A DNA stretch of 64,000 nt from assembly GCF_036971445.1 (NCBI RefSeq), contig NC_091471.1, positions 248,558,001 through 248,622,000 on the forward strand, written 5' to 3'. The stretch comes from Narcine bancroftii (lineage: Eukaryota). Each line of letters begins with the position of its first letter. Position 1 is the stretch's first letter. This document shows positions 21,184-64,000 of this stretch, one piece after another. Made by a program: the position numbers and the translations under genes. Below the pieces are notes generated by a model. It saw only the letters and a list, made by a program, of their open reading frames with translations, made no database searches and had not been told where the DNA came from.

Positions 21184-21434
21184 TTACACCACTTGTATTT
21201 TTGAATCTGTTTGTGAGTGGTTTTGGATTACAAAATGGTTTGAATTCACTTTCTTTAAAGGGAACATTTCTTTATTTTCATTCCCTTGAGGGATTTCTTG
21301 ATTCTTGTTGGGCGTTGCATTTAGTACTTTATATTCTCCAGTTTTACGAGCTCTGTTTACTAGGTACCAGATGACTGCCAATATTCCTGCGGTCGCTGCT
21401 AAGATGAATAAAATGACCATCCACCACGTTTCAC
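21184..21434 (-). CDS. ICAM/VCAM-like gene, transmembrane and cytoplasmic exon with stop
   Basis: Acceptor gttccacag in phase 1. TM WWMVILFILAATAGILAVIWYLV, then a basic stop-transfer segment RARKTGEYKV resembling the ICAM/VCAM juxtamembrane KxGxY motif. TAA at 21184-21186. Confidence 0.9.
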
Positions 21435-21582
21435 CTGTGGAACATTCACAAAAGTGATTACAAGAATCATCAAAAGTGGAAGGCAAATATATCTAATAAA
21501 CCACTGATTCTTTGAAAAATTTATGACTTTTGCCACCCTCATTTTATTAACCTGAGATTTCATATGTAGGTAAAACTTATTA

Positions 21583-21969
21583 TTGTATATATTCGTGTAA
21601 TAGTCGACCCCCTCTTTTGGCCCCAAAATCATGTTTTCCCTATGGCCTGTGTAGAAGTCAGCCCCTCTATTCTTGGCCATCCGAGCTCCCAATGCCCCTG
21701 ACCAGGTATCGTCGCCTTGGCCACCTGCCCACCCAAGCTCCCGATGTCCCGAATGTGGAGTTCGACCATCTGAGGTCCCGACACCCCGAATGCAGACTCA
21801 TCACCTGATCCCGGCCATCCGAGCTCCCGATGCCCCGAACGCAGACTTACCACCCGATGCCTTGAACTTTTACTGCGGTCAAGGGTATGACTCATGTAAA
21901 AATTGTCCCTCCCAAATTTGACCTGAAAAGTTGGTCCAAAAAACTCGACTATTACATGAATATATACAG
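21583..21969. mobile_element. Tc1/mariner-type MITE
   Basis: TIRs tgtatatattcgtgtaatagtcga / tcgactattacatgaatatataca with TA flanks. Related inverted copy at 30975-31352. Confidence 0.7.
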
Positions 21970-22469
21970 TATTAATCTCATGATATTTATGAACACATTC
22001 TGCATACTAAGAATTTGGCCTGGTCACATCTGAGGTAAGGTCATTTACTTGGAGCATTAACTGTTTTATGCTAAGAGTTCCCACCATTTTCTGTTTTCAT
22101 TTCAGAGTTTCAGCTTCTGCAGCATTCTGCTTTCCAGTCACTGCCCTTTGTAACCAGCCTCCGGACTCTAAACTACATCACAGTCCTCCCTTCTACCATT
22201 TCTCATCTGGTGGTGAAGTATTTTGTCTGTGAGAAAACCAGCAAGGCCCAAGTAATCACGACATAATCCTTGTAGTGATACTGATTGAGGGATAAATAAT
22301 TGATTGGCCTCCGTGGAGAAATCTTCTGCTCTTCTTTGTAGAAGTGTCCATGTTTTCTTTATACAAGTCCAATTCCACATTTACTAGGTGGCCCTGTGAG
22401 TGTGTGCCCTCAGCACTGGGTGTGTGCTCAACATTCGAGCACAGCTCATCCAACCTGGTGTTTATCTAC

Positions 22470-22903
22470 TGTTAGGTCTGCTTTGTTCATGAATGAGTGA
22501 GACAAACACCAGGCTGAGTCGAAATCAGGGTTCTTTGTTCTTTATTACCGGATTGTAACACTTGCGACTAAACATGTTAGTCGGAGAATGCATTCTGCCG
22601 TTATCAGCAAAATGGTGATTTTTTTATACCCTTGGATACATGCTTAGAACATCATCATATCATTACTTGTCCAATGACTAAAACTGTTGCTATCCTTTCC
22701 CTGCTAGCTTCCTGCCTCTCAATCCATCAATGTCTCTCTTATCTTGTAAGTACAAGGATGCATTTACATCTTGTTACAGCCCTGTACATTCCCATCTCAT
22801 GATGTTTTACCTAACAGGAGTACAAGGACACCTCCCCTTCTTGTTACTGCCCTGTACAGGGTAACTCCCTACACATTCCCATCTCATGATGTTTTACCTT
22901 ACA
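22470..22903 (-). mobile_element. Solo LTR
   Basis: TGTTAGG...CCTTACA ends, 4-bp TSD CTAC, internal direct repeat, minus-strand AATAAA. Confidence 0.85.
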
Positions 22904-23099
22904 CTACGCAGGACGCCAACTTTCCCTTTGTTGGTTTGTACTCAGCTTTGCTCAATCTGAGAGACCTCCTGTTTGTCTCTTACATTGCCTTCCACAGCAT
23001 ATCCCCTCCATTCTCTGAATATGTACAGGGCTGATCCACTGTGTTTGCAGCAGGCCTGCGTTTTGTTTTGGACTGCCAATGGCCTGGAATTTATAACCA

Positions 23100-23950
23100 T
23101 ATAACAATTACAGTACGGAAACATGCCATATCGGGGGTTCTAGTCCGCACCGATTTACATGAAACTCCAATTAGTTCTACCTACCTACTCCCTGCCCGTA
23201 ACCCTCCAACCCCCTCACATCCAACCTCTTCTTAAATGACAGAATTGACCCTGCTGCAACTACCTCTTCCGAAGGTCATTCCACTCAGTCACCACACTCT
23301 GAGTGAAGAAGCATCCTCTTATATTACTTCTAAAGTTTTGCCCCCTAACCCTTAACTTACGATCCCTTGTTCCAATCTCCCCTACCCTCAGAGGAAACAG
23401 CCTATTCACATCTACTCCATCTATTCCCTTCATAATTTTAAAATCCTCTATCAAATCCCCTCTCAACCTTCTACGCTCCAATGAATAAAGTCCCAGTCTA
23501 CTCAATCTTACTCTGTATTCAAGTTATTGCAATCCAGGCAACATTTTTGTAAACCTTCTTTGCACCCTCTCTACCTTATTGATATCGTTCCTATAATTTG
23601 GAGACCAGAACTCCAAATAATACTCCAAACTTGGCCTCACCAATGCCTTAAACAGTCTCAACATCACCTCCCAGCTTCTATATTCTATTCTATGATTTAT
23701 AAAGGCCAGCATACCAAAAGACTTCTTCACCACCCTATCTACATGGGAATCCACCTTCAAGGAATGCTGAACTGTTATTCCAAGATCCCTCTGTTCCTCG
23801 GCATTCCTCAATGCCCTCCCCTTCACTGCATATGTCCTATTTTGGTTATTCTTCCCAAAATGAAACACCTCACACTTATCTACATTAACCTCCATCTGCC
23901 ATCTTTCAGTCCACCTTTCCAAGCAGTCCAAATCCTTCTGGAGTCCATTT
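23100..23950 (-). mobile_element. CR1 LINE 3' fragment
   Basis: LQKDLDCLERWTERWQM, ALVRPSLEY, ERVQRRFTKMLPG, LERRRLRGDLIE. Confidence 0.9.
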
Positions 23951-25339
23951 GAATGATACAGGCCAATGGTAACCCCACAGCCTGCACTACAGGCTGGCAA
24001 AGTGTAGATTCATTTCCTCAGCTCCCCTCACTGACAGAACAGTCTGGAAGAACACCTAGCAGTAGTGAGAAACTTCACCTCCAGATGAGAAAAGGGTGAA
24101 GGGAGGACTGAGAGTCCAGAGGCTGGTTACAAAGGGCAGTGACCAGAAACCAGAATGCTGCAGATGCTGAAAATCTGAGATGAAAACAGAAAATGATGGG
24201 AACTCAGCATAAGACAGTTAATCCTCCGTAAATGACCTTACATCAGATGTGACCTGAAACATTAACTCTGTTTCTCTCTTCACAGATGCAGAGTATTCAC
24301 AACATTTTCTGCTTTCATTACCCTAAACAGCAGTTTAAGGATCTTATAGAAACATATAAAATTATGAAAGGCTAGATAAGATAGAGGTTGATAAGTTGTT
24401 TCTATTGGTGGGGGAGACCAGAACTAGGGGACATGGCGTCAAGATTCAGAGCAGTAGATTTAGGATGGAGATGAGGAGGAACTGCTTTTCCCAGAGGGTG
24501 GTGAATCTATGGAATTCGCTGCCCCCTGAAGTAGTGGAGGTGAAACCAGTAAATATTGGGTAGATTTCTGCATAGTAAGGGAATTATGGGATTATGGGGG
24601 AAAAAGGCAGGCAGGTGGAGATAAGCCAAGATCACAATGAATGGTGGAGGAGACTCGACAGGCCGGAATTGCTTCTATTTCTTATGTTCGTATGTCAATT
24701 TGTTCGCTTTGTGGAGTTGAATAAGGAAAAAACACAAATGAGGAAATTATTCACGATACACAAACATGCTGGAGAAACTCAGCAGGTCACGGAGCATCCA
24801 CAAGAAATAAAAGGTAATCAATGTTTGGGGCCTGAGCCCTTTGTTGGGGTAAATTATACATCCCTTTTTTGAACCAACGTGAGGTGTCTTCTATGTCAAT
24901 CTAGGAAGTCACAGAAGATACTACCTGTAAGGTAGTATCAGCTTCCCCAGTACAACAGGGAACACTAGCCTAGATTTTGGTGCTCACGTTTCTAGAGCAA
25001 GACTAAAAAATAATAATTAAATTTAGACTTGCAGCACGGTAATAGGTCCTTCGGGCCCACGAGCTCGTTCCACCCAAATACCCCAATGAACCTCCCAACC
25101 CTATACGTGCTTTTTTGGAGGGTGGGAGGAAACCGGGGCGGTGGTCACCCAGAAGAAACCTACATGGACATGGGGAGAATGTACAAACTCCTCATAGATA
25201 GTGAAGGATTTGAACCGGGGCTGCTGGCCGTGCTAACTTGAATCACCAATCTCACGACTCATGGCAAGAGCAGCAGCTGATGAGCTGCACACGGTCTGAC
25301 AGAAGTAAGAGTGGTTGTCTAGCAATATCTCCGTTTCAG

Positions 25340-25958
25340 CAGTCCTGGCCTTCGCTATCCTCAGTCCTGGCCTTCGCTATCCTCAGTCCTGGCCTTCGCT
25401 ATCCTCAGTCCTGGCCTTCGCTATCCTCAGTCCTGGCCTTCGCTATCCTCAGTCCTGGCCTTCGCTATCCTCAGTCCTGGCCTTCGCTATCCTCAGTCCT
25501 GGCCTTCGCTATCCTCAGTCCTGGCCTTCGCTATCCTCAGTCCTGGCCTTCGCTATCCTCAGTCCTGGCCTTCGCTATCCTCAGTCCTGGCCTTCGCTAT
25601 CCTCAGTCCTGGCCTTCGCTATCCTCAGTCCTGGCCTTCGCTATCCTCAGTCCTGGCCTTCGCTATCCTCAGTCCTGGCCTTCGCTATCCTCAGTCCTGG
25701 CCTTCGCTATCCTCAGTCCTGGCCTTCGCTATCCTCAGTCCTGGCCTTCGCTATCCTCAGTCCTGGCCTTCGCTATCCTCAGTCCTGGCCTTCGCCATCC
25801 TCAGTCCTGGCCTTCGCCATCCTCTGTCCTGGCCTTCGCCATCCTCTGTCCTGGCCTTCGCCATCCTCTGTCCTGGCCTTCGCCATCCTCTGTCCTGGCC
25901 ATCGCCATCCTCTGTCCTGGCCATCGCCATCCTCTGTCCTGGCCATCGCTATCCTCAG
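25340..25958. repeat. 22-bp minisatellite, about 28 copies
   Basis: Unit CAGTCCTGGCCTTCGCTATCCT. About 20 identical copies, then progressive variants. Confidence 0.97.
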
Positions 25959-26215
25959 CATTTACACTTAAAAAACAACGCACAGAATCCTCATCAAGGG
26001 CTCGTCTGAAATGTCAGTGATGTATCTTCACCTTTGCTACATAAAGGCACTGTTTGACCTGCTGAGTTTCTCTAGCAATTGTTTGTTTTTTGACTTAACC
26101 ACCGGTGTCAACAGAATCCTGTGTTTTACGTCCGCATTTACAAGGATATTTCAGGCCCTGAAAAGTTCATTTATTTATTCTCATCTATATTTTACGAGCA
26201 AGATAACACACGAAC

Positions 26216-26497
26216 CTTCCATCATGAGTTCCACCACCTTCTCATCAGTTCCAAGCTCATTACTGGCTCTGCACCTATAGACACCTTTGTGTTCTGATGT
26301 TGTGTGGGAAATGTGGAGAACTCCACTGTGGTTAGTCTCCACCTTTTTGCCCTGGCTGGGAACGATCCATTCCAATGTGGCCTGGGGGTTTCCGCTGGAG
26401 TGACAGGTCATTGTAACTTCATCACCATTCTTGATGAATACTGAGCCCCCGTCCACAGTCCTGTTATTAACTGTGATGCCTGTGTTTTGTGGTTTAT
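26216..26497 (-). CDS. ICAM/VCAM-like gene, Ig domain 6 exon (282 nt, phase 1-1)
   Basis: Acceptor ttctttttcag, weak donor G|GTTCGT. Encodes YKPQNT..GDEVTMTCHSSGNPQATLEW..HKGVYRCRASNELG (I-set). Confidence 0.9.
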
Positions 26498-27597
26498 CTG
26501 AAAAAGAATGAAATTAACAGCAATATTAAGCAGCTCCTGCTGCAACGTCACTTCAACCAGATCGAGTCTCCAAATGGATGGAAGCCAAAACCTGACCAGG
26601 TATCCAGCTGTTCAGAGCAACTCTGCTCCAAAGTCCAGGGAGCCTCGTGCCCTGAGTTCACAATCAGTAAACCAGCTGGGGGTCTCAGTTTAAATATATC
26701 CTCAAGGTTTCAGAACACTGGTGGATCTTAGCTTGAACAGCTTTTTGGAGCCAGATGAACTCTTTTCTACCAGCAATACTTTAAAATCCTGCTGCCTGTC
26801 TCTTCAAAGTGGGAATTCAGACACACAGGCCCTTTCAGCCCATGAGCCTATTTACACCCAACTGACCAACAAACCCCAGTATGTTTTTGACTGCTGGGAG
26901 AAAACCCACACAGACACAGGGAGAATGTACAAACTCCTTACAGACACCCTGGAATGCTGTAACTCATTGACCCTTTACAAAATGGATGACGCTAACCACC
27001 AAGCTAACTGCGTCACCCCGTCATAATATAGACAGGAGGTGGCCGATCCACATGAGTGAGTTTTGAAACTGGAGTGCCCGATCAGATGATCCTCTCTCTA
27101 GGAGACCCCAGTGTCATATGTGCAGCGAGGGCAAACTCTTCAGCCATCAGTGACTTCTAAGTTACTGCATCTTCTGTGGTCAAGGAGAGACCATTAACCT
27201 TGGATCAAACCATTCCGGATTCAAGTTGCAGTCCAGAGAGCTGAGCACAAACTCCAGGCTGACTGTGGTCAGCGTAGCGGCTCTCTAGCGCTATGCTATT
27301 ACAGCGCCAGTGACCTGGGTTCAAATCCAGCGTTGACTGTAAGGAGTTCTTAACGCTCTCCCCATGACCTCGCACATTCCAAAGACATACAGAGAGGTTT
27401 GTAGCTTAATTGGTCACAGGGTGTATTTGGGTTGCTTGTGCTCGTGGGCCAGAAGGATCTGTTACCATGCTGTATCGCTAAGTGATTTAAAAAAATAAAT
27501 AAATATCGAACGCAGTATTGAGGGAGTGCTGCACTGGTGTGGAGCTGTCCTTCGGTTGAGGCATTACATTGAGGGTCCATTTTGTGAATTATGCTAT

Positions 27598-28339
27598 TGT
27601 GACAGAGTATTTAGAGGTGTTTTGGGAAGATTACAGCAGGTTGCACACAAACATTTTAAAACAGAATATTTGCACGACTTTTGCAAAGTGCTTTTTGCAA
27701 AAAGAGCAACAAAGTTGCAGCGTACAGCTGGCCTGGGAGAGCATGTGATTTTTGCAAGCAGAGAGAACAGTTTTGCTCTCAGAAAGGGAGGGTGTGAAAC
27801 AGAAAGGAGACAGAAATTAGTTCCAGAAGGACAAAGCTGGCAAGCTTTTGGAAGACTGCCTGGTCAAAGGAGAAGACTGGCTGTCTGAAAGGTGACCTGA
27901 AAGAAGGAGGATCATCTGGAGAACCCTCAAGAGGGCACGTTTCGTTAGCAAGACTAATTAAACAGGAATCAGGTGCGGATGTCCTGGAACAAAAGGATCT
28001 CTGAAGACCAACAAAATCCCTCCTGAGTAGTAACCATTTGCCTGTTAAGCACCAAAGACTGGTGAAGTTCGTTAATGCTAACTTCTGAGCACAGTTACAA
28101 GAATTGCCTGCAACCAGTAAGATTGGACAATGATCCAAAGAACTTTTCTAATCTTAAATACACATTACACACACCTGCGCTTAGTATTAGAAGGGGGATT
28201 AAGTAGGTTAAGTAATAAGTTAAAGTTTAATTCTGTTTTCTTGTTCAAATATAATTAAAAACTACTTTTGTTTAAGTAACCCTGTGTTGAGGTGCATATC
28301 TATTGCTGCTGGTTTTGGGGTCCTCTGGACTCCGTAACA
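27598..28339 (+). mobile_element. Solo LTR
   Basis: TGTGAC...GTAACA ends and 4-bp TSD CTAT. The 3' half is homologous to 33563-34579. Confidence 0.85.
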
Positions 28340-28574
28340 CTATGTTGAGATGTTATGGAGTTCTTCCAGGCAACCTGGCCAACAATTTTTAACTTTGTTA
28401 TTGTTAGAAATGCAGCACGGTAACAGGCTCTTCCGATCCCACGAGGCCATGCTGCCTAAACCCCAATTAACCTACATCCTGTACGTTTTGAAGGGTGGGG
28501 GAAACCAGAGGACCTGACAGTTTGCAGACAGAAAATAAAGGAACTTATTACACAAGGACACCTCCTATACTTAC

Positions 28575-28820
28575 ACAAAATCTCTGCACGAAAAGAGGAG
28601 TTGATGGAGCCAAACTCATTATAGAGAGTACACATGTAGTGACCACCATTTTCCAGTTGGACAAAGGGGATGTGAAATGTCTCGATGCTGCTAATTATCT
28701 CTCCATCTCTTCTCCAGAGCACTTGGGGATCTGGGTTCCCTTTTCCATGACAGGTTAACGTCTGTGATTTCCCTTCAATCCACTCCTGTTCTTGAGAGAT
28801 CTGCACCTCATCTGGAGAAT
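28575..28820 (-). CDS. ICAM/VCAM-like gene, Ig domain 5 exon (246 nt, phase 1-1)
   Basis: Acceptor aaattcacag, donor T|GTAAGT. Encodes YSPDEV..WIEGKSQTLTCHGKGNPDPQVLWRRDG..GGHYMCTLYNEFGS. Confidence 0.92.
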
Positions 28821-28899
28821 CTGTGAATTTAATTACAATTGAAAATTTAAAAAAAGAACGCTGAAATTTAGGAGCTTTAAATTTCTCTTCAACCAATAC

Positions 28900-29360
28900 A
28901 CCAAACGTGCTGAAGAAACTCAGCAGCATCCGTAGGAACTAATGGGTAACCAACGTTTCGGGCTTGGGCCCTTCGTCAGATATAAGATCAAAAAGGTGGC
29001 AGGGGGAGGGGGGGAAAGGAGGAAGGGGCACGGCGAGGGGTACAGGCAAACAGATGGTCCGTGGTGGATCTGGGTGGGATGGTAGAAGAGGGGAAAAAAA
29101 ACAGCTGAGAAATGATAAGGTGAGTGATAGGAGGGAGAAGGGGTGGGGAGCTGGAGGGAGGGAGACAGAGAGATAGGGAAAAAGAAAGACCCAGGAGAGG
29201 GGTTGAATGGAAATTTGAGGTTGATCCTGTCTGGTTAGAGTGCCCAGATGGAATACAAGGTGTTGTTCCTCCAATTTCTTGGTAGCATCGGTTTGGCAGG
29301 GCTTGAGGCCATGGAGAGACATGTTGGTGTGAAGAATTGAAATGGTTGGCCACTGGGGCG
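28900..29360 (-). mobile_element. Penelope-like element 3' fragment
   Basis: GIY-YIG C-terminal remnants ANHFNS and KKLEEQHLVFHLGTL. Tail tctgacgaagggcccaagcccgaaacgttg. Confidence 0.7.
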
Positions 29361-30974: not shown

Positions 30975-31352
30975 CCGTATATACACATGTAATAGTCAAA
31001 TTTTGTGGACCAACGTTTAGGGTAAAATTTAGGGGGTCCACTATTACACACATACTACTTTTCATTGCAGTAAGTACTTGTGTCGTTTGAGGGGCCGGGA
31101 GCTTGGATGGCCAGGTGGGTGGGACTGAGTGGTTAAGTCTGTGTTTGGGGCATCAGGAGTTCGGACGGGCTGGCAGCCAGGGCCTAGGCGAGAGTCCGTG
31201 GCTGGGGTGGTGAGAGCTCAGACGGGCTGGCAGCCGGGGCCTAGGTGAGAGTCTGCAGTCGAGGCGTCAGGAGCTCGAGTTGTCAGGCAGTCAGAGCCAA
31301 AAATAGGGGGTCAACCTTTACATGGTATCGACCTTTGCACGCGAATATACGG
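30975..31352. mobile_element. Tc1/mariner-type MITE related to 21583-21969
   Basis: ccgtatatacac...gcgaatatacgg ends and a shared gccaaaa..aggggggtc subterminal block. Confidence 0.6.
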
Positions 31353-33562: not shown

Positions 33563-33927
33563 TATGATGGAATACTTGAGAATGTTTTTGGGAGATAAAT
33601 TGGTAAAATTAGAGGAGTACACACACTTTAAAACAGATCTTATTTGAAATACTGAAGAATTCATATTCAGTGACTTCTGTAATGGAAAATGCTATGGAGA
33701 TTTCACAAGTGGCTGTTAATTGAAGTGAATGAATGGACTATGGTCTTTAAAGCCACAGCAAGAGACAGGCCGTCTCCTAATTTCTCTTCACAGAAAGGTC
33801 ATCGAGAGGTTATTGTTTACCTAAAACAACAGATTGACCAAAAGACCAACTCCTATTGTTTGCTGGAGAAGGTCAGGGGTTTTGCAAGTGAGAGAGAGAG
33901 AAGGACATACTGCCTGGCAGTTGAAGT

Positions 33928-33973
<46 letters not shown>

Positions 33974-34579: not shown

Positions 34580-34600
34580 TACCAAAATGATGTGACTTAC

Positions 34601-34882
34601 ATTGGACGTTGAGAGTGGCAGACTGTTCTTTATTGATGGATTCGGAGTGAAGTTGTAACTTTAGCTCAGCTTCGCAGGTGTACTCCTCTCCATTCAGCTT
34701 TGCTAGTGGATACACAGTGTGGTAGATGGTGAGCTCAGAAACGCCTGATGCATTCTCTAACAGATCTCTTCCCGCCTTCAGGCGGAGTTGAAATGCGCCT
34801 GATACATTGAAGACACTGCAAGTGATGTTCACTGGGATCCCCTCAATGCTGGTTGGCACTTGGATTTCAGGGCCAGGGAAAA
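34601..34882 (-). CDS. ICAM/VCAM-like gene, Ig domain 4 exon (282 nt, phase 1-1)
   Basis: Acceptor ctgttgttacag, donor T|GTAAGT. Encodes VFPGPEIQV..NITCSVFNV..LNGEEYTCEAELKL..LNVQ. Confidence 0.92.
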
Positions 34883-36122: not shown

Positions 36123-36158
<36 letters not shown>

Positions 36159-36236
36159 CATAATAATTGATTTGAAATTGTCAAAAAAGGACAGGATTAA
36201 ATATCGGCAGTGATTGAAAGAGGTATAAAAACTTTG

Positions 36237-40679: not shown

Positions 40680-40970
40680 CGTACATCTCAATGTTGATGC
40701 TGTCATTTCTCATAACTGATGTGTAATTTTCAAAATCAGCCATGCAGGTGAGTTCAGTCCAACCAGGCTCTTGGGGTGTCCAAGCTATAGTTGCCCAGAC
40801 AGTGGTGGGATCTGGCCGCTTTGTAACCGAATTCCATTCTTTACCATCCAGAAACCATCGAACTCTCATCTTATCCACTGGATAGACATTTTCTACCTGG
40901 CACATCAACGTGGCCTCTTGATTCACTTCCACTGCATTTTTGTTGAGTATTGTGGGAGGCTGTGGAAAAA
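40680..40970 (-). CDS. ICAM/VCAM-like gene, Ig domain 3 exon (291 nt, phase 1-1)
   Basis: Acceptor tgccttacag, donor G|GTAAGC. Encodes FFPQPPTIL..LMCQVENVYPVDKMRVRWFLDG..LTCMADF..IEMY. Confidence 0.92.
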
Positions 40971-46637: not shown

Positions 46638-48540
46638 CTTTTCTTTGGCTTGGCTTCGCGGACGAAGATTTATGGAGGGGGTAAAAAGTCCACGTCAGCT
46701 GCAGGCTCGTTTGTGGCTGACCAGTCCGATGCGGGACAGGCAGACACGATTGCAGCGGTTGCAAGGGAAAATTGGTTGGTTGGGGTTGGGTGTTGGGTTT
46801 TTCCTCCTTTGCCTTTTGTCAGTGAGGTGGGCTCTGCGGTCTTCTTCAAAGGAGGCTGCTGCCCGCCAAACTGTGAGGCGCCAAGATGCACGGTTTGAGG
46901 CGTTATCAGCCCACTGGCGGTGGTCAATGTGGCAGGCACCAAGAGATTTCTTTAGGCAGTCCTTGTACCTTTTCTTTGGTGCACCTCTGTCACGGTGGCC
47001 AGTGGAGAGCTCGCCATATAATACGATCTTGGGAAGGCGATGGTCCTCCATTCTGGAGACGTGACCCATCCAGCGCAGCTGGATCTTCAGCAGCGTGGAC
47101 TCGATGCTGTCGACCTCTGCCATCTCGAGTACCTCGACGTTAGGGGTGTGAGCGCTCCAATGGATGTTGAGGATGGAGCGGAGACAACGCTGGTGGAAGC
47201 GTTCTAGGAGCCGTAGGTGGTGCCGGTAGAGGACCCATGATTCGGAGCCGAACAGGAGTGTGGGTATGACAACGGCTCTGTATACGCTTATCTTTGTGAG
47301 GTTTTTCAGTTGGTTGTTTTTCCAGACTCTTTTGTGTAGTCTTCCAAAGGCGCTATTTGCCTTGGCGAGTCTGTTGTCTATCTCATTGTCGATCCTTGCA
47401 TCTGATGAAATGGTGCAGCCGAGATAGGTAAACTGGTTGACCGTTTTGAGTTTTGTGTGCCCGATGGAGATGTGGGGGTGCTGGTAGTCATGGTGGGGAG
47501 CTGGCTGATGGAGGACCTCAGTTTTCTTCAGGCTGACTTCCAGGCCAAACATTTTGGCAGTTTCCGCAAAGCAGGACGTCAAGCGCTGAAGAGCTGGCTC
47601 TGAATGGGCAACTAAAGCGGCATCATCTGCAAAGAGTAGTTCACGGACAAGTTTCTCTTGTGTCTTGGTGTGAGCTTGCAGGCGCCTCAGATCCGTGCGG
47701 TACCGGATGTAAACAGCGTCTTCATTGTTGGGGTCTTTCATGGCTTGGTTCAGCATCATGCTGAAGAAGATTGAAAAGAGGGTTGGTGCGAGAACACAGC
47801 CTTGCTTCACGCCATTGTTAATGGAGAAGGGTTCAGAGAGCTCATTGCTGTATCTGACCCGACCTTGTTGGTTTTCGTGCAGTTGGATAATCATGTTGAG
47901 GAACTTTGGGGGACATCCGATGCGCTCTAGTATTTGCCAAAGCCCTTTCCTGCTCACGGTGTCGAAGGCTTTGGTGAGGTCAACAAAGGTGATGTAGAGT
48001 CCTTTGTTTTGTTCTCTACACTTTTCTTGGAGCTGTCTGAGGGCAAAGACCATGTCAGTGGTTCCTCTGTTAGCGCGAAAGCCGCACTGTGATTCTGGGA
48101 GAATATTCTCAGCGACACTAGGTATTATTCTATTTAGTAGAATCCTAGCGAAGATTTTGCCTGCAATGGAGAGCAACGTGATTCCCCTGTAGTTTGAGCA
48201 GTCTGATTTCTCGCCTTTGTTTTTGTACAGGGTGATGATGGTGGCATCACGAAGATCCTGAGGCAGTTTACCTTGGTCCCAACAAAGCTTGAAAAACTCA
48301 TGCAGTTTGGCATGCAGAGTTTTGCCGCCAGCCTTCCAGACTTCTGGGGGGATTCCATCCATACCTGCTGCTTTGCCACTTTTCAGTTGTTCGATTGCCT
48401 TATATGTCTCATCCAGGGTGGGAACCTCATCCAGCTCTAGCCTTAGGGGCTGTTGAGGGAGCTGGAGCAGGGCGGAATCTTGGACTGAGCGGTTGGTACT
48501 GAAAAGAGATTGGAAGTGTTCTGACCATCGGTTGAGGATG
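46638..48540 (-). mobile_element. RTE-clade LINE, 5'-truncated, with an open RT frame, inserted in ORF1 of the inner L1
   Basis: About 615 uninterrupted codons: NYRGITLL, FVDLTKAFD, GVKQGCVLAP, LLFADD. No TSD; about 18 bp of the L1 target is missing. Confidence 0.95.
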
Positions 48541-48663
48541 CCAGTGGTACTTAAAATAGTTATTCCAGGGCAGTAAAACAGACTATTCTCGGATCCGGAG
48601 GAATCACGAAAATTTGCATAACTACAAAACAGACAGAGAGATGAAGGCATGTAACGAGAGTAA

Positions 48664-54800: not shown

Positions 54801-57530
54801 AGTGGCTGTTGCTTTCGATGCAGAAAACGCCTTTGACAGGGTAGAATGGAATTATTTATTCAAAGTATTACAGAAGTTCAATCTACCAGAAAAATATATT
54901 AATTGGATTAAAGCATTGTATAATGGACCATTGGCGAAGGTAACAGTAATTGGATATGTATCGAATCAATTTAAATTAAGTAGGTCAACTAGGCAGGGAT
55001 GTCCATTATCTCCCTCATTGTTTGCTTTAGCAATAGAAACAATGGCAGAACTGATAAGAACATAAAATAAAATAAAAGGGATAAAAATAAAGGAGAAGGA
55101 GTATAAAATCAGTTTATTTGCAGATGACATCATAGTATACTTAACAGAACCAGAAATATCAATAAAGGAACTATATAAGAAATTGAAGGAATATGGAGAA
55201 ATATCGGGGTACAAGATCAACGCAAATAAAAATGAAGCGATGCCAATGAGTAATGCGGATTATACAGAATTTAAAAAAGAATCACCATTTAAATGGCAAA
55301 CACAAGCAATCCGATACCTAGATATTAGATTAAATCATAATTTAAGCCAACTGTACAAATTAAATTATCAGCCACTAATAAAGAAATTGCAGGAAGACTT
55401 AGAATATTGGAATTACCACTAACATTGATAGGGAGGGTAAATTGCATTAAAATGAATGTCTTCCCAAGGATACAATACTTATTTTAATCATTACCAATTC
55501 CCTTAAAAGATAAGTTCTTTAATGAACTACAGAGAATAATAAGGAAATTTTTATGGAAAGGGGGGAAAATTAACAGAATGGTACAACCAAAGTGGTTTGC
55601 AGTTACCAAACTTTTAAAATTATTATAGAGCAGCACAATTAAGGTATTTATCAGATTTTTCCCAGACAAGGGAAAAACCAGATTGGACTAAGATAGAGCT
55701 AAGATAGGGGAGAAGGTACCGGAACATAAAGTGGGATGAAAAGCTGATACGATATAAAAGCTCACCAATATTGCATCACTTACGCAATATATGGAAGAAG
55801 ATTCACTTAGAAAGGAAAAAAACAAATTACCAACTACCAAAATTATTACTGATGTAAAATCAGCTAATCCCTTTTTACAAAAGATAACCTTTCCTTTAGA
55901 GAATGGGAGAGAAAAGGAATTAAAAGAATAGAAAATTGTTTTTTGGGAAATTATTTATTAACATTTGAACAAATGAAGTACAAATATGGAATAACTCGTG
56001 GTACAATGTTTGCATATCATCAACTGAAAGCTTATTTAAAGGATAAATTGGAAAACAGACTGAGATTACCAGAAGGAAACAGTTTTGAATATGTGATTAC
56101 AGAAACAATGATAATAAAAAGATTTATAACAAACATGTACGTCGAGCTGCAAGAGAAAGAAATGATGAAATAAGCTATAAACCTAAACAAATGTGGGAAA
56201 AAGATTGAAACAAAGATAACAAATGAAATATGGAAAAGTTATGCTCTGGAACTATGAAGAATATAATAAACACAAGTTTATCCATGATACAATATAATTG
56301 GTTACACAGGCTATGTATCACGCCCCAAAAGTTAAATAAATGGGACCCAACAGTATCAGATAGATGTTTTCGCTGTAAGAAGGAAACGGGAACAACAGTA
56401 CATGCAATTTGGGCATGTGAGAAAGTGGAAACGTTTTGGGAAGATGTAAATCAGGTATTAAATAAAATCACAAAAAGCAACATACCAAAAAATCCAGAGA
56501 TCTTTCTTCTAAGTAATATAAGAAGTAAAGAATTAGGCCTCAAACTGGATGAAGCGCAAAAAAGACTTATTATGATAGCCTTAGCTGTAGCAAAAAAAAT
56601 GTATAATGTCAACTTGGAAATCAGAAGAGAGCCTGAGAGTACAGCAATGGTATATAGAAATGAATAAATGTATTCCATTGGAAAAAATAACATATAATTT
56701 AAAAAATAAAGTCACATTATTTGAACAAATTTGGGAACCATACATGGAACATAACAGAGAGGGCCTACCATGGACTTCCACCCCCTAAAATGATAGAATG
56801 AGAAGATGAAATGACCTGACCCAGTGTGTAAAAGAAGCTGACACAATTTTCTTGTTTATTTTCATTGTGTGATGACGTTGTTTAATGGTTTTATTGTATT
56901 GTATATGTTGAACGTTTAGTGGGTAGGGAGGGGATGGGAAGGTGGGAGGGAAGGTAAGGGGATAGTGGAGAAATTGCCACTGTGTATATTCAAGAGGGAA
57001 ATGTTTATGTGTATTTTGATTGATATGGTTCACAGTATGAAAAATTTTTAAAAATTAAGTCACCCCCACCTTTCTTCACTCCAGAGAGAGAGATATATAT
57101 ATATTATTTTTTAAAAATAATTAGAACTGCTCGTACTATCCATCCAAGATGCTCATATTCATGAAACAATATTTATTTATTTACCTATATATAGGAATAC
57201 TTGTCCTGCATGTGCATTGTTTGTCTTCTGCATGTTGCGTCTGGTTGTGTGACTGCATGTTTTGCACTGAGGACCAGAGAACACTGTTTTGTCGGGTTGT
57301 ACTTGTGCAATTAGATGACAATAAACTCAATTTGACTTGACTTTTGGGGAATGGGTGGGTAAGTGGAATGGAGCCTATGACCAGATCAGCCATGATCTTA
57401 CTGCACAGTGGAGTGGGCTTGATGGTCCTGATGGGCTCCTGCTCTCATAAAACTTCTCAAAATGTGACCTTTTATTGCTTATTTTAGCCTCCCCCTCAAG
57501 TTGAGTGATTAATATTTAAGTGGAACTCAC

Positions 57531-57845
57531 AATAAGTTTGCAGAGTCTCCGAGCGCTTTGCAATTTGCTTTGTTAGGTTGGAGCCCAGGTCCAACTCTGC
57601 CAAGCAGGTGTAAACCTGCCCATCATCGCTCTTCCTTGCTGTGACCTCGAGGACATTCTTCAATCGAACATCATCGTCTGGGTAACCTTCCTCGTTTGTG
57701 GAAATATGCTGAATTTTCTCGTTCCCCCTCAGCCACGTGAGTATGACCTTGTTGTTTGGGTAAACTCTCGGACCAATGCATATCAAGCTATAATTCTGAT
57801 CAATTTCCAACACTTCAGCAGGGGCGATAACATTTAGGTGTTCAT
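57531..57845 (-). CDS. ICAM/VCAM-like gene, Ig domain 2 exon (315 nt, phase 1-1)
   Basis: Acceptor ttctccctcaacag, donor T|GTGAGT. Encodes ..YSLICIGPRVYPNNKVILTWLRG..DDGQVYTCLAEL.., a C2-set Ig domain with C-W-C. Confidence 0.92.
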
Positions 57846-57899
57846 CTGTTGAGGGAGAACCATGGGTTAATAATTTGCATTCCAACAATGAATCTGATG

Positions 57900-58680
57900 C
57901 GGCGACGGAGGCGAACCGGCTCTGTGTGTGGCGGCTGCTCAAGATGGCATCGCCAGGCCCGGGCTCCCTCGTGGCCAGAGAGACCGCGCACGCGCTCTCG
58001 GCTGCGTTGTCTCGTCACAGCCGACGCAGAGGGTGGGACTTGACAGCACAGCGCGGGCTTTTTGAATTCAAACAGATGGGAACAGAACCGACTCCAGCTC
58101 ATGGTTTCCATTCTCATCTCCCCTTCGTAAGCTACCGCTACTATTGGTGACCCCAACGTGATTTCAGTTGGCAGCTCGCGAGGTGACAGTAGCCATCTAA
58201 TGCTGCTAATCACTTCTCATTTATTTAGCTCCTTATTTTACAACTAAAGTGCTCTACATTACTTGCCTTTCTTTCTTCTACATATATTGGTATTTGAATG
58301 GCTACAAGGAGCAAATTTTGGAAGAAAGAAATAGCGTTAACGAATCTGGCCATGGTTCTATCACCGAGATATAGACGAATAGACGAATCCTTAATGAAGT
58401 CTTGGGTCAGATTAACAATAAACCCATCCAAGTACAAAAAAAAAACTAAAGAACATGGTGAACGTTTGACAACGGTTGAGTAGGAACAGAGCAACTTGAA
58501 CAAATTGATGAAGAGGAAAATACGCGGCAGTAATCTGAAACTTGCGAAGAAAGTCGTTGATTTGGAAGACAGGAGTAGATGACAGGATTATGAATCCTGG
58601 ATTATAAATCCTGGGCTTGCCTGAATCCACAGAAAGTGGATTTCTATTCTTTTAATAATTTATCTGAACTCTGCTTGTCC
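57900..58680 (+). mobile_element. 5' fragment of a third L1-clade element (CpG-rich 5' UTR and decayed ORF1)
   Basis: CpG-rich leader with CAAGATGGC. ORF1 remnants MATRSK.., KVVDLEDRSR, ILGLPES. Confidence 0.65.
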
Positions 58681-59181
58681 CAACTCATCATCCATTTCAA
58701 GATTCAATTTATTGTCATGTAATAAAAACAGTGTAATATTACACAGCATTTGCTTTTGTCTGCTACAAGGCAGGCAGATTCTCCACTGGCAGAAATTGCC
58801 TGAAGCACCTCACAGTCAGAGAAAGAGAAGCAAGAGAGTCGTGTTCCCACCACCCAGAATCCCCGGTGTCGATGGATTCGCCGCAGCCCCCAGAGTCCAG
58901 CCACACAAGAGTCCAGTCCAAACTATCAGCAGCCCGAGCTCCAGATCCAAATCTCCGACACAATCAGGAACCCTTCAGCACCTGTTTCTGATACCCGCTT
59001 CCCCTTCAGCCAGCTCCTGAGCCAGTCTCCAGCAGTGCGCAGCCCGGTGGGAATCCCTCGACCACAGTCGCCAGCAGCCCACAGCCTGCACAGGTTCCTT
59101 GCCTCGAGCCACCATCAGCCTGGAACATGTACATTTCTTCAAATGCAGAACCCCTCATTGGCCTGTTGCCGTGGTCACATT

Positions 59182-59430
59182 CAGTGCTGGATTTAGGCAG
59201 ATGCTAAACAAGCTACAGCTTAGGGCCTCACAATCTGCAGGCGCCTCAAAAATATATTAAGGTATGTTAAAACTATTTTAAAAGTTACAGTTAAGTATTG
59301 TTTCCAGCCAACCAAATGATAAATATGTAATCAGTAAATTCATTTGAAAATAATCTGTATTGTAATTTTTTAACTAGGGCCTCCAAGCTTTATTTAGCTT
59401 ATAGCCTCACCGAAACTAAATCTGGCACTG
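59182..59430. mobile_element. hAT-type MITE, second family
   Basis: TIR CAGTGCTGGATTTAG / CTAAATCTGGCACTG. 8-bp TSD GTCACATT/GTCACAGT. Confidence 0.8.
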
Positions 59431-59659
59431 GTCACAGTCTCCTCTGCTTCTCCTTCTCAAACATGGGTTGTTCTATCTGTTTTCTTATTAATGTATTCAT
59501 AAGATGTGGGCACACAAGCAAGAACTTATAAAAACTCTTCAATATTCAATCTAACCTCATAATAATTCTTTCACAATTCTTATCAGAATAATATTTTTTT
59601 CAGCTGTAGAACATACAGTTCTGTGACATCCTGTGCCTTGAGCTACTCAGAAGGGTCTG

Positions 59660-60240
59660 GGGGGGATCATGCTCTGCTGACCATTAATGGTTCCACCGTT
59701 GAGGTTGTCAATAGTATCAAGTTCCTTGGAGTGCACCTGGCGGAGAATCTCACCTGATCCCTTATCGCCAGCTTCATAGTCAAGAAATCTGAGGAAAGTT
59801 CATCTCCCACCCTCAATCATCACTAGATTCTAAAAGTGAATGCATCGGGAGCATCGTGTGCAACTGCACCTCAGTCTGGTTTGGAAGCTGTACCTCCCCG
59901 GACTGCAAGACCCTGCAGAGGAGAGTGGAGTCAGTGGAAAAGATCATTGGGGGTTCTCTTCCTACCATGAAGGACGTCTACAACACTTGATGCAGGTGAA
60001 AGGCAATAAACATTGTGAAGGGCTCCACACACCCCTCACATCAACTGTTCTCCCTTCTGCCATCTGGTAGGAGGTACTTATGTCCAGATTGGGCAATGTA
60101 TACATCTTAATATTTTAACGTGTTTAACTTCTATTCTAACTTATATTTATGTAAATAGGCTTCGTGGTCCTGGAGAAATGCTATCTCATCTTTATCGTGC
60201 GAGCATGGTATGAATGATAAATAAACATGACTTGACTAAC
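59660..60240 (+). mobile_element. L2/Rex-Babar-like LINE 3' fragment
   Basis: Remnants IKFLGVHL, CKTLQRRVESVEKIIG, HQLFSLLPSGRR. Tail aataaacatgacttgact. Confidence 0.65.
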
Positions 60241-60390
60241 CACATTGGAGGGCCTAGAGTCCAAACAAAGACCAGAGCAAACAATTTTCCTTTTCTCACA
60301 AGACACCAGCAAACCAGATGGTTTTTACAATCGAATAGTTCCATGGTCACCATTACAGAGCTTATCTTTTATGCAAAAGTCCAGATTTTG

Positions 60391-60605
60391 GTGGCACAGT
60401 TAACGCAAAGCGGTTAGTGCCAGCGATCAGGGCCGGGGTTCGAATCCTGCGCTGTCTGTAAGGGGGTTATACGTTCTCCCCGTGTCTGCGTGGGTTTCCT
60501 CTTGGTGCTCTGGTTTCCTATCACCATCTAAAACGTACTGGGGGGCTATAGGTTAAATCGGGTGTAATTGGGCAGTATGGGCTCATGGGCCGAGAGGTAT
60601 GTCTA
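60391..60605 (+). mobile_element. tRNA-derived V-SINE-type element (representative; related copies at about 13230-13445, 19180-19350, 25025-25240, 26820-27020, 27265-27480, 29560-29740, 30165-30400, 39500-39690, 41403-41570, 42185-42403)
   Basis: B-box GGTTCGAATCC and core ttctccccgtgtctgcgtgggtttcc recur throughout the window. Confidence 0.8.
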
Positions 60606-60679
60606 AATTAAAAATGTTTAAAATTGTCCCCTAAGTGATTGGAACTAACTTCCCTGAATCAATGATCCAGACCCCTCTA

Positions 60680-61550
60680 AATAACTACATATGCAAATTC
60701 GCAGATGACACTGAACTGGGTGGGAGTGTAAAGTGCGAGGAGGATGTCAGGAAATTGCAAGTGGACTTGGATAGTTTAGGGGAGTGGGCGGAAAGATGGC
60801 AGATGAAGTTTAATGTGAGCAAATGCGAGGTTGTCCATTTTGGAGGCAGAAACAAGAGAGCAGAATATTATTTAAATGGAGTTAAGCTAGGGAGTGGGGT
60901 AGTGCAAATGGATCTGGGCGTACTTGTTCACCAGTCATTGAAAACTAGCATGCAGGTTCAGCATGCTATGGGATATTGGCTTTCATAAAGAGGGGATTGG
61001 AGTATAAGAGTAGAGAAGCCCTCCTGCAGTTGTACAGGGTTCTGGTGAGACCTCACCTGGAGTATTGCGTCCAGTTCTGATCCTCCTATTTAAGAAAGGA
61101 CATTCTTGCTATAGAAGGAGTGCAGCACAGGTTTATAAGGTTAGTTCCCGGGATGGCAGGATTGTCATACATGGATAGGTTAGAAAGACTGAAGCCCAGT
61201 CTCCATATGCGATGGAGTTTAGAAGGACGAGGGGAGACATGATTGAGGTATTTAGGATTATCAAAGGGCTTGACAGGGTGAAATCAGAGTACATGCTCCC
61301 AATGACGGGAGAGACGAGGACTATAGGGCATAGTTTAAGAATACAGGGAAGGCCATGTAACACAGAAATGAGGAGAATTTTTTTTTTAACCAGAGAGTTG
61401 TGGATCTGTGGAATGCATTACCACAGAGGGTAGTGGGGGCAGATTCGCTGGATAGATTTAAGAGACAGTTGGATAAGGCTCTTGTGGGCAGGGGAGTTAA
61501 GGGTTATGGGGATAAGGGTGGGATTGGTTACTGAAAGGGAAAGATCAGCC
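60680..61550 (+). mobile_element. CR1 LINE 3' fragment
   Basis: KFADDTELGG, WAERWQMKFNVSKCEVVHFG, RGDMIEVFRIIKGLDRV. Confidence 0.9.
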
Positions 61551-62329
61551 AATTGGTCCTTCGAGCCAGCACCTATTGTCTATGCTAATCCACTATCCTG
61601 AATGATAATATTATCTGTGTGAAGATCTCTGTTGACAAGATATTTCCTTAAACAGCGTTTATTAAAATCAATAGAAGTTAGATTTGGAGGTTTGGATCTG
61701 GAGTCCGGGCTGTTGATGGTTTGGACTGGAATCCACAGACACTCATTCACATTCTTCTGCTTCTCGGTCCCTGACTTCAAGAGGTGCTTCAGACAATTCC
61801 TGCTGTCAGAGAATCTGTCTACCTTACAGCAGCAAAGCAAATTCCATGTAATTTGGCACTGGTTTTTTTAAAAACATGACAATAAATGAATCCTGAATCT
61901 TGAGAGCTTTCCAAACTCTCTCACTGCCTTTGAACACAGTTCATAAACTCAAGACAATTATACTCTGTTAGAATACACCCAAATTTGGTAAATCCTCACC
62001 TTCTCCAAACTCGGTCAGCTATGACAAGCTTCTTTACAAACTAAGCAATTCTTCCCCCCCACCCCCAGCTATTGAAGTGAGAAATGAAAAGTGGCTTATA
62101 CTTCTCCTGTAAATTGCCATGTCTTCATAATTAATTATGTCGCCTGTGATTAAGATTTTTCTACAGAGGAATTTCAGTACAATATTTTCATCAGCTTTGA
62201 GAGAGATGAGGAAACTTGACATAAAATATGAAAGATGGGGAAACTAGTGCAGACATGTGGAGTGATGGATTAAACCAGTATGAACAGGCTAAGCATGGAA
62301 ATTAGAATGCAGGAAGCAGAGTCAGCCTA

Positions 62330-62891
62330 TGTAAGATAAGAATCTTCTAGTCTTTTCCACAGGATCAGTGAGCCCACCTTATGAATAAGATAAGGAGATA
62401 GTCTGGATGAGATAAGGGTCTCCTAGCCCTAGACAGAAGTACCAAGTTCTACATATATAATTAGTAAGCCTTACCACAGATTTATCAAGTTATGCATATT
62501 AAATTAGTAAACCCTAGACAGGATTAACGAACTCTGCATATGAAGAGACTGTATCTGAAAGGTGTGAATGGGGACAAGGGCAATAAGGACAATGAGGATA
62601 ATGACATGATAAGACACCGACAGGAAACCCCCTGGTCCTCCAAGTGCACAGAAACAGCACGTAGGCAGGCAGGATTACCTAATGCCAAACCTCTCCAGGA
62701 GGCAGAAGAATGTAAGGGGGAGGGTATTCCTATACTGAAATGAACTGTATAAAAGTTGGGTGAGGCCCAGTGTATGTGTGTATTCCCATGGTAAGGAGAA
62801 GCACCCAACTTTGCATTGTTGTTTAATAAATGTTCTTTGTTCTCAATTTTTGTCTCGAGCAATTTCTGTGAAGGTACTTCTGTTTCTAACA
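62330..62891 (+). mobile_element. Solo LTR
   Basis: TGTAAG...CTAACA ends, TATAAAA at about 62748, AATAAA at about 62825. TSD degraded. Confidence 0.65.
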
Positions 62892-63219
62892 GCTTCTAAT
62901 GCTGGGTGCAGTAAAACACACATTCTGCAACGTTGCCTGTGGCCTCTCGAACTGTCACATTTTGACTTCTGTTTGCTCTCTTCTGCTCTTTGTACAACAA
63001 AACATGGCTTGGAAGATCCCATAACATCTGCTTTTGAGTTTAAAAAAAATGAAGATTCTGCATCCTGAGCATTTTTGGGTTTATTTTATGGATTTTGGCC
63101 TGCTGGTCACAAAAAATCTCTTTCAAAATATCTTATCATATACTGTTTTTTTTAAGATTATAACCCATCTTTCTGATTTTCTGTCATACTTTAAGTCGAC
63201 TTCAAGTGGACAAAACCTC

Positions 63220-63457
63220 AAACTGCAACATGTCGTTGAAAATTAATTTTCTGGATTCGCACTTGGACGTCCTCCCTGCTGATTCTGGTGCGGACAGTGA
63301 CTAACACGGTGAAAGGTTTCACCAGGACATTGCGACCATGGAAAAGCAGTTTCAGGGCCACTGGAATCCATCAATGCCTGCTGACTATTGCTGGACACTG
63401 ATGTGGGAGGCATCAGATGCCGAGTACAAACGCAAATCAGTGGCAAAACATTTTTAG
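63220..63457 (+). pseudogene. Relic of a transposase C-terminus (DNA transposon, superfamily uncertain)
   Basis: Hand translation FLDSHLDVLPADSGADSD*HGERFHQDIATMEKQFQGHWNPSMPADYCWTL..KRKS, with an internal stop. Confidence 0.7.
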
Positions 63458-63820
63458 GTCAGTTGAACTAACGCAACGTGTCAGCATCACCATGCGATTA
63501 AACTTGCTAAATTCTGTCAAAGTTGATTTAACGTTTCTCCAATTTCCTCATAATCCCCAATTTTTTTTCAGGAAGCAAATTGTTATCCAGTGATATTAAT
63601 TATCCAGGTAATCCCATATTTTCTGCTTGGCTTTAAGCCTAGTTCATATTCCAACATCGATGTGGGGTTAGATTTGGCACATATGTATGTAGGTGGACAC
63701 CTGATCCACAGTTACATCTTTCAGAGTACATTTTTGAAAGTTTAAAATAAATTTGTTGGCTTCTTTTCACCCAGTTATGCTCTGTTATGAGATGTGTTTA
63801 GAAGAAGAGATTTCACTTAC

Positions 63821-64000
63821 TGTACACTGTGACCACCATTTTGTCCTCCTGGAAATCGTTTAATGATGGACAGGACACACTGCAGGGCACTGTGAAATCC
63901 CATTTCTGAACATTCTGGAATCGGTCTCTGATCCAGTCACTACCTTGAAGTCGGTTGGGATTTATCCCTGGTTTATATTCCACAGTCATTATTGGGTCTG
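63821..64000 (-). CDS. ICAM/VCAM-like gene, Ig domain 1 exon (5' part lies outside the window)
   Basis: Hand translation DPIMTVEYKPGINPNRLQGSDWIRDRFQNVQKWDFTVPCSVSCPSLNDFQEDKMVVTVY. It has the ICAM D1-type CxxxC motif and a ...TVY end. Phase-1 donor A|GTAAGT at 63820. Not in the ORF track. Confidence 0.85.

What the first reader, a model, noticed from the sequence alone, without database searches (positions are those of the whole stretch)
21184..64000. Six-Ig-domain adhesion receptor mixing ICAM and VCAM features
Seen: seven exons splice in frame into D1-D6, TM and tail. D1 aligns by eye to ICAM-1 D1 (PCSVSCP vs MCYSNCP; NVQ..; ..TVY). It has Glu (TVEYK vs GIETP) at the position of the ICAM-1 integrin-binding Glu34, where VCAM-1 and MAdCAM-1 use Asp (IDS, LDT). 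D2 and D3 carry the VCAM-like C...VYP...W pattern. The tail motif KTGEYKV resembles ICAM-5 KKGEYNV. Established: mammalian ICAM-1 and ICAM-3 have 5 Ig domains, VCAM-1 has 7 and ICAM-5 has 9. Inference: a lineage-specific or ancestral-type beta2-integrin ligand. At least ten N-x-S/T sites are present in D2-D6.
Basis: partly seen in the sequence, partly recalled or inferred. Interest (0 to 1): 0.7.

Follow-up and report, generated by a model that had tools for sequence, protein, structure and literature searches.

The report
Six-domain ICAM gene of a ray
This is an intact leukocyte-adhesion gene of the ICAM family in an electric ray, not an ICAM/VCAM hybrid; its six-domain layout recurs in sharks and amphibians and is likely the ancestral form from which the human ICAMs were trimmed or extended.

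Summary
Seven minus-strand exons splice in frame into six Ig domains, a transmembrane helix and a tail. The signal exon lies 12 kb beyond the window, with no further Ig exon in between. The spliced product equals a 668-aa database protein, one isoform of which is named ICAM5-like (Narcine bancroftii). The 'ICAM/VCAM mix' reading is not supported. D1-D5 align collinearly with human ICAM-1 D1-D5. Each domain scores best against, and groups with, the same-position ICAM domain (D2 least firmly). The gene lies near TYK2, CDC37 and DNMT1, as the human ICAM cluster does. The same genome has a separate, Asp-bearing VCAM1. The tail motif is family-wide. The form is not lineage-specific: the six-domain layout occurs in at least nine shark and ray species and in amphibians. 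D6 is homologous to the last domain of ICAM-5-type proteins. It likely works as a beta2-integrin ligand through the D1 Glu; beta2 and a CD11-like I-domain exist in the genome. Binding and junction reads are untested. Ordinary family member; the evolutionary reading (ancestral six-domain ICAM) is of modest interest.

The parts
63821..64000 (-). D1 exon (continues beyond the window to extended position 64093): ICAM N-terminal domain, 4 Cys (49, 53, 93, 97), Glu61 equivalent to ICAM-1 Glu34. The signal-peptide exon lies outside the window at G000:C8:248634380-248634446 (extended 76380-76446)
   Evidence: (PF03921, 26.8 bits, cut-off 21)
57531..57845 (-). D2 exon, ICAM D2-type; skipped in database isoform P0016
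   Evidence: (59.2 vs 40.3 bits)
40680..40970 (-). D3 exon, homologous to ICAM-1 D3
   Evidence: PF21146; ICAM-1 D3, E 2e-7; clade 98/95
34601..34882 (-). D4 exon, homologous to ICAM D4
   Evidence: clade 98/97
28575..28820 (-). D5 exon, I-set-like, homologous to ICAM-1 D5 and to the repeated domains of ICAM-5-type proteins
   Evidence: clade 85/82, not starred
26216..26497 (-). D6 exon, I-set-like, homologous to amphibian/coelacanth D6 and to the last domain of ICAM-5-type proteins; no counterpart in five-domain ICAM-1
   Evidence: clade 96/95
21184..21434 (-). Transmembrane + cytoplasmic tail exon with KTGEYKV juxtamembrane motif and stop codon
   Evidence: (helix 588-616)

Best explanation
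An intact elasmobranch ICAM-family gene (signal peptide, six Ig domains, transmembrane helix, tail), likely co-orthologous to mammalian ICAM-1/3/5, whose product likely binds leukocyte beta2 integrins. Shown: exon structure, domain-by-domain ICAM homology, a neighbourhood like that of the human ICAM cluster, a separate VCAM1, and genes for integrin beta2 and a CD11-like I-domain in the same genome. Inferred from mammalian ICAMs: D1 Glu61 would complete the Mg2+ site (MIDAS) of a CD11 alpha-I domain, and glycosylated D2-D6 would hold D1 away from the membrane. The basic G-x-Y-x-V tail would link to actin adaptors, giving firm leukocyte adhesion and transmigration. By parsimony the D1-D2-D3-D4-D5-D6 layout is likely the ancestral jawed-vertebrate ICAM: ICAM-1/3 would have lost D6 and ICAM-5 would have multiplied D5.
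For: One uninterrupted alignment of residues 37-485 to human ICAM-1 9-442, E 5.6e-22. The AlphaFold model (pLDDT 81.6) is closest to ICAM-5 D1-D4 (Z 22.9, rmsd 5.4, 367 aligned) and ICAM-1 D1-D5 (Z 16.7, rmsd 5.8, 415 aligned). Profiles trained without cartilaginous fish rank the same-position ICAM domain first for 6 of 6 domains. Trees: D1 ICAM/VCAM split 100/99, D3 98/95 and D4 98/97, D2 94/87, D6 96/95. D6 with VCAM D3 is rejected (p-AU 0.03), as is a recent D5/D6 duplication (p-AU 0.008). Synteny: TYK2, CDC37 and DNMT1 lie within about 0.7-1.4 Mb on the same contig; the human cluster order is seen in a table of PMC13700139. The ray's own VCAM1 on contig C11 has Asp aligned to human IDSP, E 7e-16. 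Glu is in 82 of 84 cartilaginous-fish D1 rows, isoforms included. An integrin beta2 exon (E 8e-38 vs 5e-30 for beta7) and an alphaM/alphaX-like I-domain exon are in the genome. The six-domain layout is in 11 of 60 hits (9 species) and in axolotl, Xenopus, Bombina and Mixophyes proteins. The ICAM Glu-MIDAS mechanism is from passages of PMC4237329 and PMC10215618.
Against: Profile margins are small for D5 (51.2 vs 46.2 bits) and D6 (62.0 vs 60.8), and the ray's VCAM D3 also scores 60.9 on the D6 profile. D2 monophyly with bony-vertebrate ICAM D2 held in only 33% of bootstrap trees, and D2+VCAM D2 is not rejected (p-AU 0.21). On D1-D2 fragments the fold search ties ICAM and VCAM-1 (Z 13.4-14.7). 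The D1-D4 profile scored VCAM-1 D1-D2 (39.7 bits) above ICAM-1 and ICAM-5 D1-D2 fragments (26-35), though below ICAM-2 (69). In one search one teleost D6 fell outside the D6 clade; it was left out. The Mac-1 site of ICAM-1 D3 (Asp229, Glu254) aligns to Gly and Gln with acidic neighbours. Training labels came from profiles seeded on the ray's domains. Trees hold no human, tetrapod VCAM1 or MAdCAM-1 rows and used LG+G4 without the mixture model. DNMT1 lies on the TYK2 side, so gene order differs from human.
Confidence: 0.8

Rival explanations
1. A true ICAM/VCAM mosaic, or a survivor of the gene that preceded the ICAM/VCAM split, with VCAM-derived D2-D3 (and D6).
For: VYP..W retained in D2 and D3 as in VCAM D2 (alignment); VCAM D2 is the second-best profile; D2+V2 not rejected (p-AU 0.21); D6 is a near tie with VCAM D3 in profile score.
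Against: D3 and D4 form starred clades with bony-vertebrate ICAM D3/D4; D6+V3 rejected, p-AU 0.03; a separate VCAM1 exists in the same genome and in a shark; ICAM-type synteny; collinearity with ICAM-1.
Confidence: 0.06
2. A one-to-one ICAM-5 (telencephalin) orthologue acting mainly in neurons, with fewer D5 repeats.
For: Database name ICAM5-like; shares D6 with ICAM-5-type proteins; tail close to KKGEYNV of reptile ICAM5-like proteins; best fold match is ICAM-5 D1-D4.
Against: Cartilaginous-fish D1s form their own clade (99/96) that includes genes A and B, not sister to any tetrapod paralogue; near-identical tail motifs occur in skate and reedfish ICAMs and similar ones in VCAMs; D6 is also in amphibian ICAM1-like proteins.
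Confidence: 0.06
3. The six-domain count is a gene-model artefact or a derived state: the real transcript skips exons or includes the upstream D1-D2-D6 unit, or the six-domain forms of sharks and amphibians arose independently by exon shuffling.
For: Architectures vary widely in sharks and rays (28 layouts among 60 hits); database isoform P0016 skips D2; shark models with D1-D2-D6 in front exist (P0032, P0036); chimaera has D1-D2-D5-D6 and most teleost-like hits lack D3-D4.
Against: Own signal exon, with no Ig exon between it and D1; the upstream unit is frameshifted; six domains is the commonest layout (11 of 60); a six-domain 633-aa protein sits on a 2,280-base contig, so it most likely comes from a spliced RNA (P0128); all six domain types are shared between cartilaginous and bony vertebrates in the same order.
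Confidence: 0.08

Closest known systems
Human ICAM-1 / ICAM-3 (five Ig domains)
   Same: D1-D5 collinear; four-Cys D1; Glu at the MIDAS-binding position; neighbourhood with TYK2, CDC37, DNMT1.
   Different: Extra D6; longer tail; D2 keeps VYP..W; Mac-1 site residues shifted; only about 21-22% identity in the structural alignment.
ICAM-5 / telencephalin (nine Ig domains)
   Same: D1-D4 best fold match; last domain homologous to D6; similar juxtamembrane motif.
   Different: One D5 instead of 3-7 D5 repeats in the tetrapod ICAM5-like proteins seen; no evidence of one-to-one orthology.
Amphibian six-domain ICAMs (axolotl 'ICAM1-like', Xenopus/Bombina 'ICAM5', Mixophyes) and coelacanth/lungfish ICAMs
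   Same: Same D1-D6 order in amphibians; coelacanth differs only by a triplicated D3.
   Different: Some amphibian D1s lack the canonical Glu or one of the second Cys pair (alignment; sequences).
VCAM-1 (and MAdCAM-1)
   Same: Homologous four-Cys D1 and C2-type D2 with VYP..W; G-x-Y-x-L tail.
   Different: VCAM uses Asp in D-x-P, has a (D1-D2-D3)-repeat plan, and is a separate gene on contig C11 of this genome. MAdCAM-1 was not in my trees.

Membership tests
ICAM family (ICAM-1/2/3/4/5) | N-terminal ICAM_N domain with two disulfides | tested here: met
   PF03921 above cut-off; Cys49/53/93/97; D1 tree 100/99
ICAM family (ICAM-1/2/3/4/5) | Glu at the ICAM-1 Glu34 / ICAM-3 Glu37 position | tested here: met
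   82 of 84 cartilaginous-fish rows
ICAM-1/3/5 subgroup | D2-D3-D4-D5 homologous in order to ICAM-1 D2-D5 | tested here: met
   D2 and D5 support not starred
ICAM-1/3/5 subgroup | Linkage with TYK2, CDC37, DNMT1 (human chr19 cluster) | tested here: met
   human order. MRPL4 and FDX2 were not found nearby; exon-wise search is insensitive
ICAM family (ICAM-1/2/3/4/5) | Cation-dependent binding to beta2-integrin alpha-I domain | not testable with these tools
   Receptor genes present; no binding test run
ICAM-5 (one-to-one orthologue) | Nine domains with repeated D5-type units; groups with tetrapod ICAM-5 | tested here: not met
   One D5; cartilaginous-fish D1s form their own clade
VCAM-1 | Asp in D1 I/L-D-S/K-P loop and VCAM-type D1 | tested here: not met
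   Glu-type D1 on the ICAM side; profile 53.9 vs 21.1 bits; separate VCAM1 gene
VCAM-1 | D2 of VCAM descent | tested here: inconclusive
   Best tree puts D2 with ICAM (94/87) but the VCAM grouping is not rejected, p-AU 0.21
MAdCAM-1 | LDT motif, two Ig domains plus mucin stalk | tested here: not met
   No LDT in D1 and no mucin stretch in the sequence; PF09085 not hit at E 1e-4; feature list recalled; no MAdCAM rows in trees

The most novel reading that the evidence does not exclude
The six-domain D1-D6 protein is the ancestral ICAM of jawed vertebrates, conserved from sharks to amphibians. ICAM-1/3 (D6 lost), ICAM-5 (D5 multiplied), ICAM-2/4 (truncated) and teleost D1-D2-(D5)n-D6 repeats all derive from it. 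A Glu-bearing ICAM / beta2-integrin adhesion pair thus already existed in cartilaginous fish, earlier than papers that date ICAMs to bony fish or amniotes.
Probability: 0.6. Interest if true: 0.45.

Novelty: new member of a known kind. Interest (0 to 1): 0.3.

Why it matters
It bears on the age and ground plan of the ICAM family. One paper dates ICAM1 to bony fish (PMC7916592, passages). Another groups ICAM1-3 with amniote-level genes and suggests non-mammals use other molecules at the immune synapse (PMC13262535, passages). A syntenic, Glu-bearing ICAM cluster with beta2 and a CD11-like subunit in a ray argues otherwise and gives a testable ligand for shark leukocyte adhesion. It also shows that database names in this family ('VCAM1-like', 'hemicentin-like', 'ICAM5-like') are unreliable. 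No new mechanism is involved.

Tried and rejected
Junction reads: one search listed 5 runs (4 holding at least half the words of the TM exon region), none on record as RNA, so this is 'no RNA holder listed' and no evidence either way; no reads could be laid, so splicing in this species rests on genomic splice signals and database models. Single-sequence fold of D1 failed (pLDDT 42.5); the alignment-based model was used instead. Pfam C2-set search of the genome found nothing and rang in no control, so it is uninformative; VCAM1 was found with a gar protein instead. Ribosomal L4 and Fer2 searches gave no match near the cluster; not taken as absence. Toxin and plant-enzyme hits to D1 at E 0.1-0.6 are chance matches. 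No complex prediction was run: no whole ray alpha-I protein was held and the pair is a textbook one. A D1-like fragment near window 13.8 kb (tblastn E 0.004) has a stop and no DNA-level match, so it was not counted as an exon. Searches of earlier scan findings returned nothing. Nine literature searches listed no paper describing cartilaginous-fish ICAMs or a six-domain ground plan; the library lacks most subscription journals, and supplements were not read. PMC552929 was not held.
Full report
Observation. The gene is on the minus strand. Motif and splice-site scans found six Ig exons and a TM/tail exon. The window cuts D1: its acceptor is at extended position 64093, and the signal exon is at 76446-76380. 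A profile scan of 462 kb around the gene found no Ig exon between the signal exon and D1. The eight exons give a 668-aa frame identical to database protein P0017. The same cluster holds an isoform lacking D2 (P0016) and an N-truncated one named 'ICAM5-like isoform X2 [Narcine bancroftii]'. Ten N-x-S/T sites lie in D2-D6 and one in D1. I obtained no junction reads.

Which family. The full protein aligns in one stretch, residues 37-485, with human ICAM-1 D1-D5 (E 5.6e-22), with Glu61 on Glu34. D1 alone hits Pfam ICAM_N and, weakly, ICAM-3. Among family members D2 best hits ICAM-5 and ICAM-2 D2, and D3 best hits ICAM-1 D3; VCAM-1 is not in the 60 rows shown for either (of 190 and 794 matches). 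ICAM-1 D3 carries LFP where the ray has VYP, so the pattern is not VCAM-specific. An AlphaFold model from an alignment of 36 sequences (pLDDT 81.6) shows six Ig domains and a TM helix. It is closest to ICAM-5 D1-D4 (Z 22.9) and ICAM-1 D1-D5 (Z 16.7), while D1-D2 fragments of ICAM and VCAM-1 tie.

Per-domain tests. I gathered bony-vertebrate ICAMs and VCAMs with a D1-D4 profile (150 of 571 hits listed) and made 20 name look-ups for 19 of them (one stayed unnamed). Profiles trained without cartilaginous fish ranked the same-position ICAM domain first for all six ray domains: D1 53.9 vs 21.1 bits for the best VCAM profile, D2 59.2 vs 40.3, D3 65.2 vs 49.8, D4 48.6 vs 24.3, D5 51.2 vs 46.2, D6 62.0 vs 60.8. 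Labels were seeded from the ray's domains, which is partly circular. Trees on hand-picked rows gave an ICAM/VCAM D1 split at 100/99 (35 rows) and D3 and D4 clades at 98/95 and 98/97 (45 rows). D2 was unresolved there. With D3 as outgroup it joined bony ICAM D2 at 94/87, but the VCAM alternative was not rejected (p-AU 0.21). D6 grouped with amphibian, coelacanth and lungfish D6 and the last domain of ICAM5-like proteins (93/97). After removing the long teleost and reedfish rows, second D5 copies, two VCAM domain types and one teleost VCAM protein, support was 96/95; D6+VCAM D3 (p-AU 0.03) and a recent D5/D6 duplication (p-AU 0.008) were rejected. No human, tetrapod VCAM1 or MAdCAM-1 rows were available for trees.

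Genomic context. The gene is the middle one of three tandem minus-strand paralogues. Downstream lies gene B (D1-D2-D3-D4-D6-TM, no D5); upstream lies gene C (D1-D2-D6, frameshifted, no TM exon found). On the same contig are a JAK whose kinase exon best matches TYK2 (247.81-247.90 Mb), CDC37 (247.72 Mb) and DNMT1 (247.18 Mb), about 0.7-1.4 Mb from the gene. The human order DNMT1, S1PR2, MRPL4, ICAM1, ICAM4, ICAM5..., ICAM3, TYK2, CDC37 appears in a table of PMC13700139 (passages). A gar VCAM1 query found a separate gene on contig C11. Its D1 matches human VCAM-1 at E 7e-16 with Asp aligned to IDSP, and it is named VCAM1b in the database. So ICAM and VCAM had already split in this lineage.

How general is six domains. 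Among the 60 hits, all cartilaginous fish where named, 28 layouts occur. D1-D6 is the commonest (11 of 60, nine species; three of the 11 have a truncated D1). The same six-domain order is found in axolotl, Xenopus, Bombina, Mixophyes (D4 labelled D3-like) and an unnamed 633-aa protein on a 2,280-base contig (these were in the training set, so their scores are not independent). Coelacanth has D1-D2-D3x3-D4-D5-D6. Tetrapod ICAM5-like proteins have D1-D4, several D5 and D6. Lizard, mammal-like and reedfish five-domain proteins stop at D5. Chimaera has D1-D2-D5-D6. Parsimony puts all six domain types, in this order, in the jawed-vertebrate ancestor; that they stood in one six-domain gene is inference.

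Mechanism. In ICAM-1, -3 and -5 the D1 Glu binds the metal of the alphaL I-domain (PMC4237329 and PMC10215618, passages). The Glu is in 82 of 84 cartilaginous-fish D1 rows; the two chimaera rows have a Glu two positions on. The genome encodes integrin beta2 and a multi-exon I-domain whose first exon best matches alphaM/alphaX among single-domain hits. PMC4237329 reports only alphaE in elephant shark, and PMC8359198 (passages) says alphaE and alphaL; I did not identify an alphaL. The likely role is therefore a glycosylated rod presenting D1 to a CD11/CD18 integrin. The basic G-x-Y-x-V tail is family-wide (100 of 138 ICAM-type, 13 of 15 VCAM-type) and would engage actin adaptors as described for ICAM-1. 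Binding, tissue and partner subunit are untested.

Verdict. A real, already annotated ICAM-family gene; the hybrid reading fails, and the 'ancestral-type' reading gains support. Nine literature searches listed no account of cartilaginous-fish ICAMs or this ground plan. A trout paper notes that domain number differs from mammals (PMC8417878, passages). Two papers date ICAMs later. Interest 0.3.

Noticed in passing
G000:C8:248463142-248515913 (downstream of the window): Intact-looking paralogue B: signal, D1-D2-D3-D4-D6-TM, lacking D5 with no DNA remnant found; 68-76% DNA identity to the Ig exons of this gene, plus a decayed extra D3 fragment. Database model P0049 ends without the TM exon.
   Followed up: partly
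G000:C8:248681334-248706661 (upstream of the window): Paralogue C of the three-domain D1-D2-D6 type with frameshifts in the D2 and D6 exons and no TM exon found: a pseudogene or assembly errors. Intact D1-D2-D6 models exist in several sharks.
   Followed up: partly
G000:C11:80635980-80638573: The ray's VCAM1 is compact and short (about 3-4 Ig domains, 401-aa model without a clear TM), with Asp in T-D-N-P; shark VCAM1 has D1-D2 plus 5-7 D3-type repeats.
   Followed up: partly
G000:C8:232.30-232.40 Mb and C9:227.25-227.27 Mb: CD11-like (alphaM/alphaX-like) I-domain exons and integrin beta2 exons in a cartilaginous fish; one paper seen reports only alphaE in elephant shark.
   Followed up: partly
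proteins: ICAM domain shuffling is extreme in sharks, rays and teleosts (repeated D1-D2, D3-D4 and D1-D2-D6 units, up to about 2,500 aa), often named VCAM1-like or hemicentin-like; the D1-D2-D6 unit mirrors VCAM's D1-D2-D3 unit.
   Followed up: partly
window 46698-48662 (-), intron between D2 and D3: Long open reverse-transcriptase frame (Pfam RVT_1, E 6e-36) of a LINE, RTE-like by recall, with a related copy near the TYK2 locus; may be a young element.
   Followed up: partly
window 13677-13808 (-): Weak D1-like peptide fragment with a stop (tblastn E 0.004), no DNA-level match; possible old exon remnant or chance.
   Followed up: partly
G000:C24:79767000-79767236 (-): Second, stop-riddled ICAM_N profile match on another contig; not examined.
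   Followed up: no
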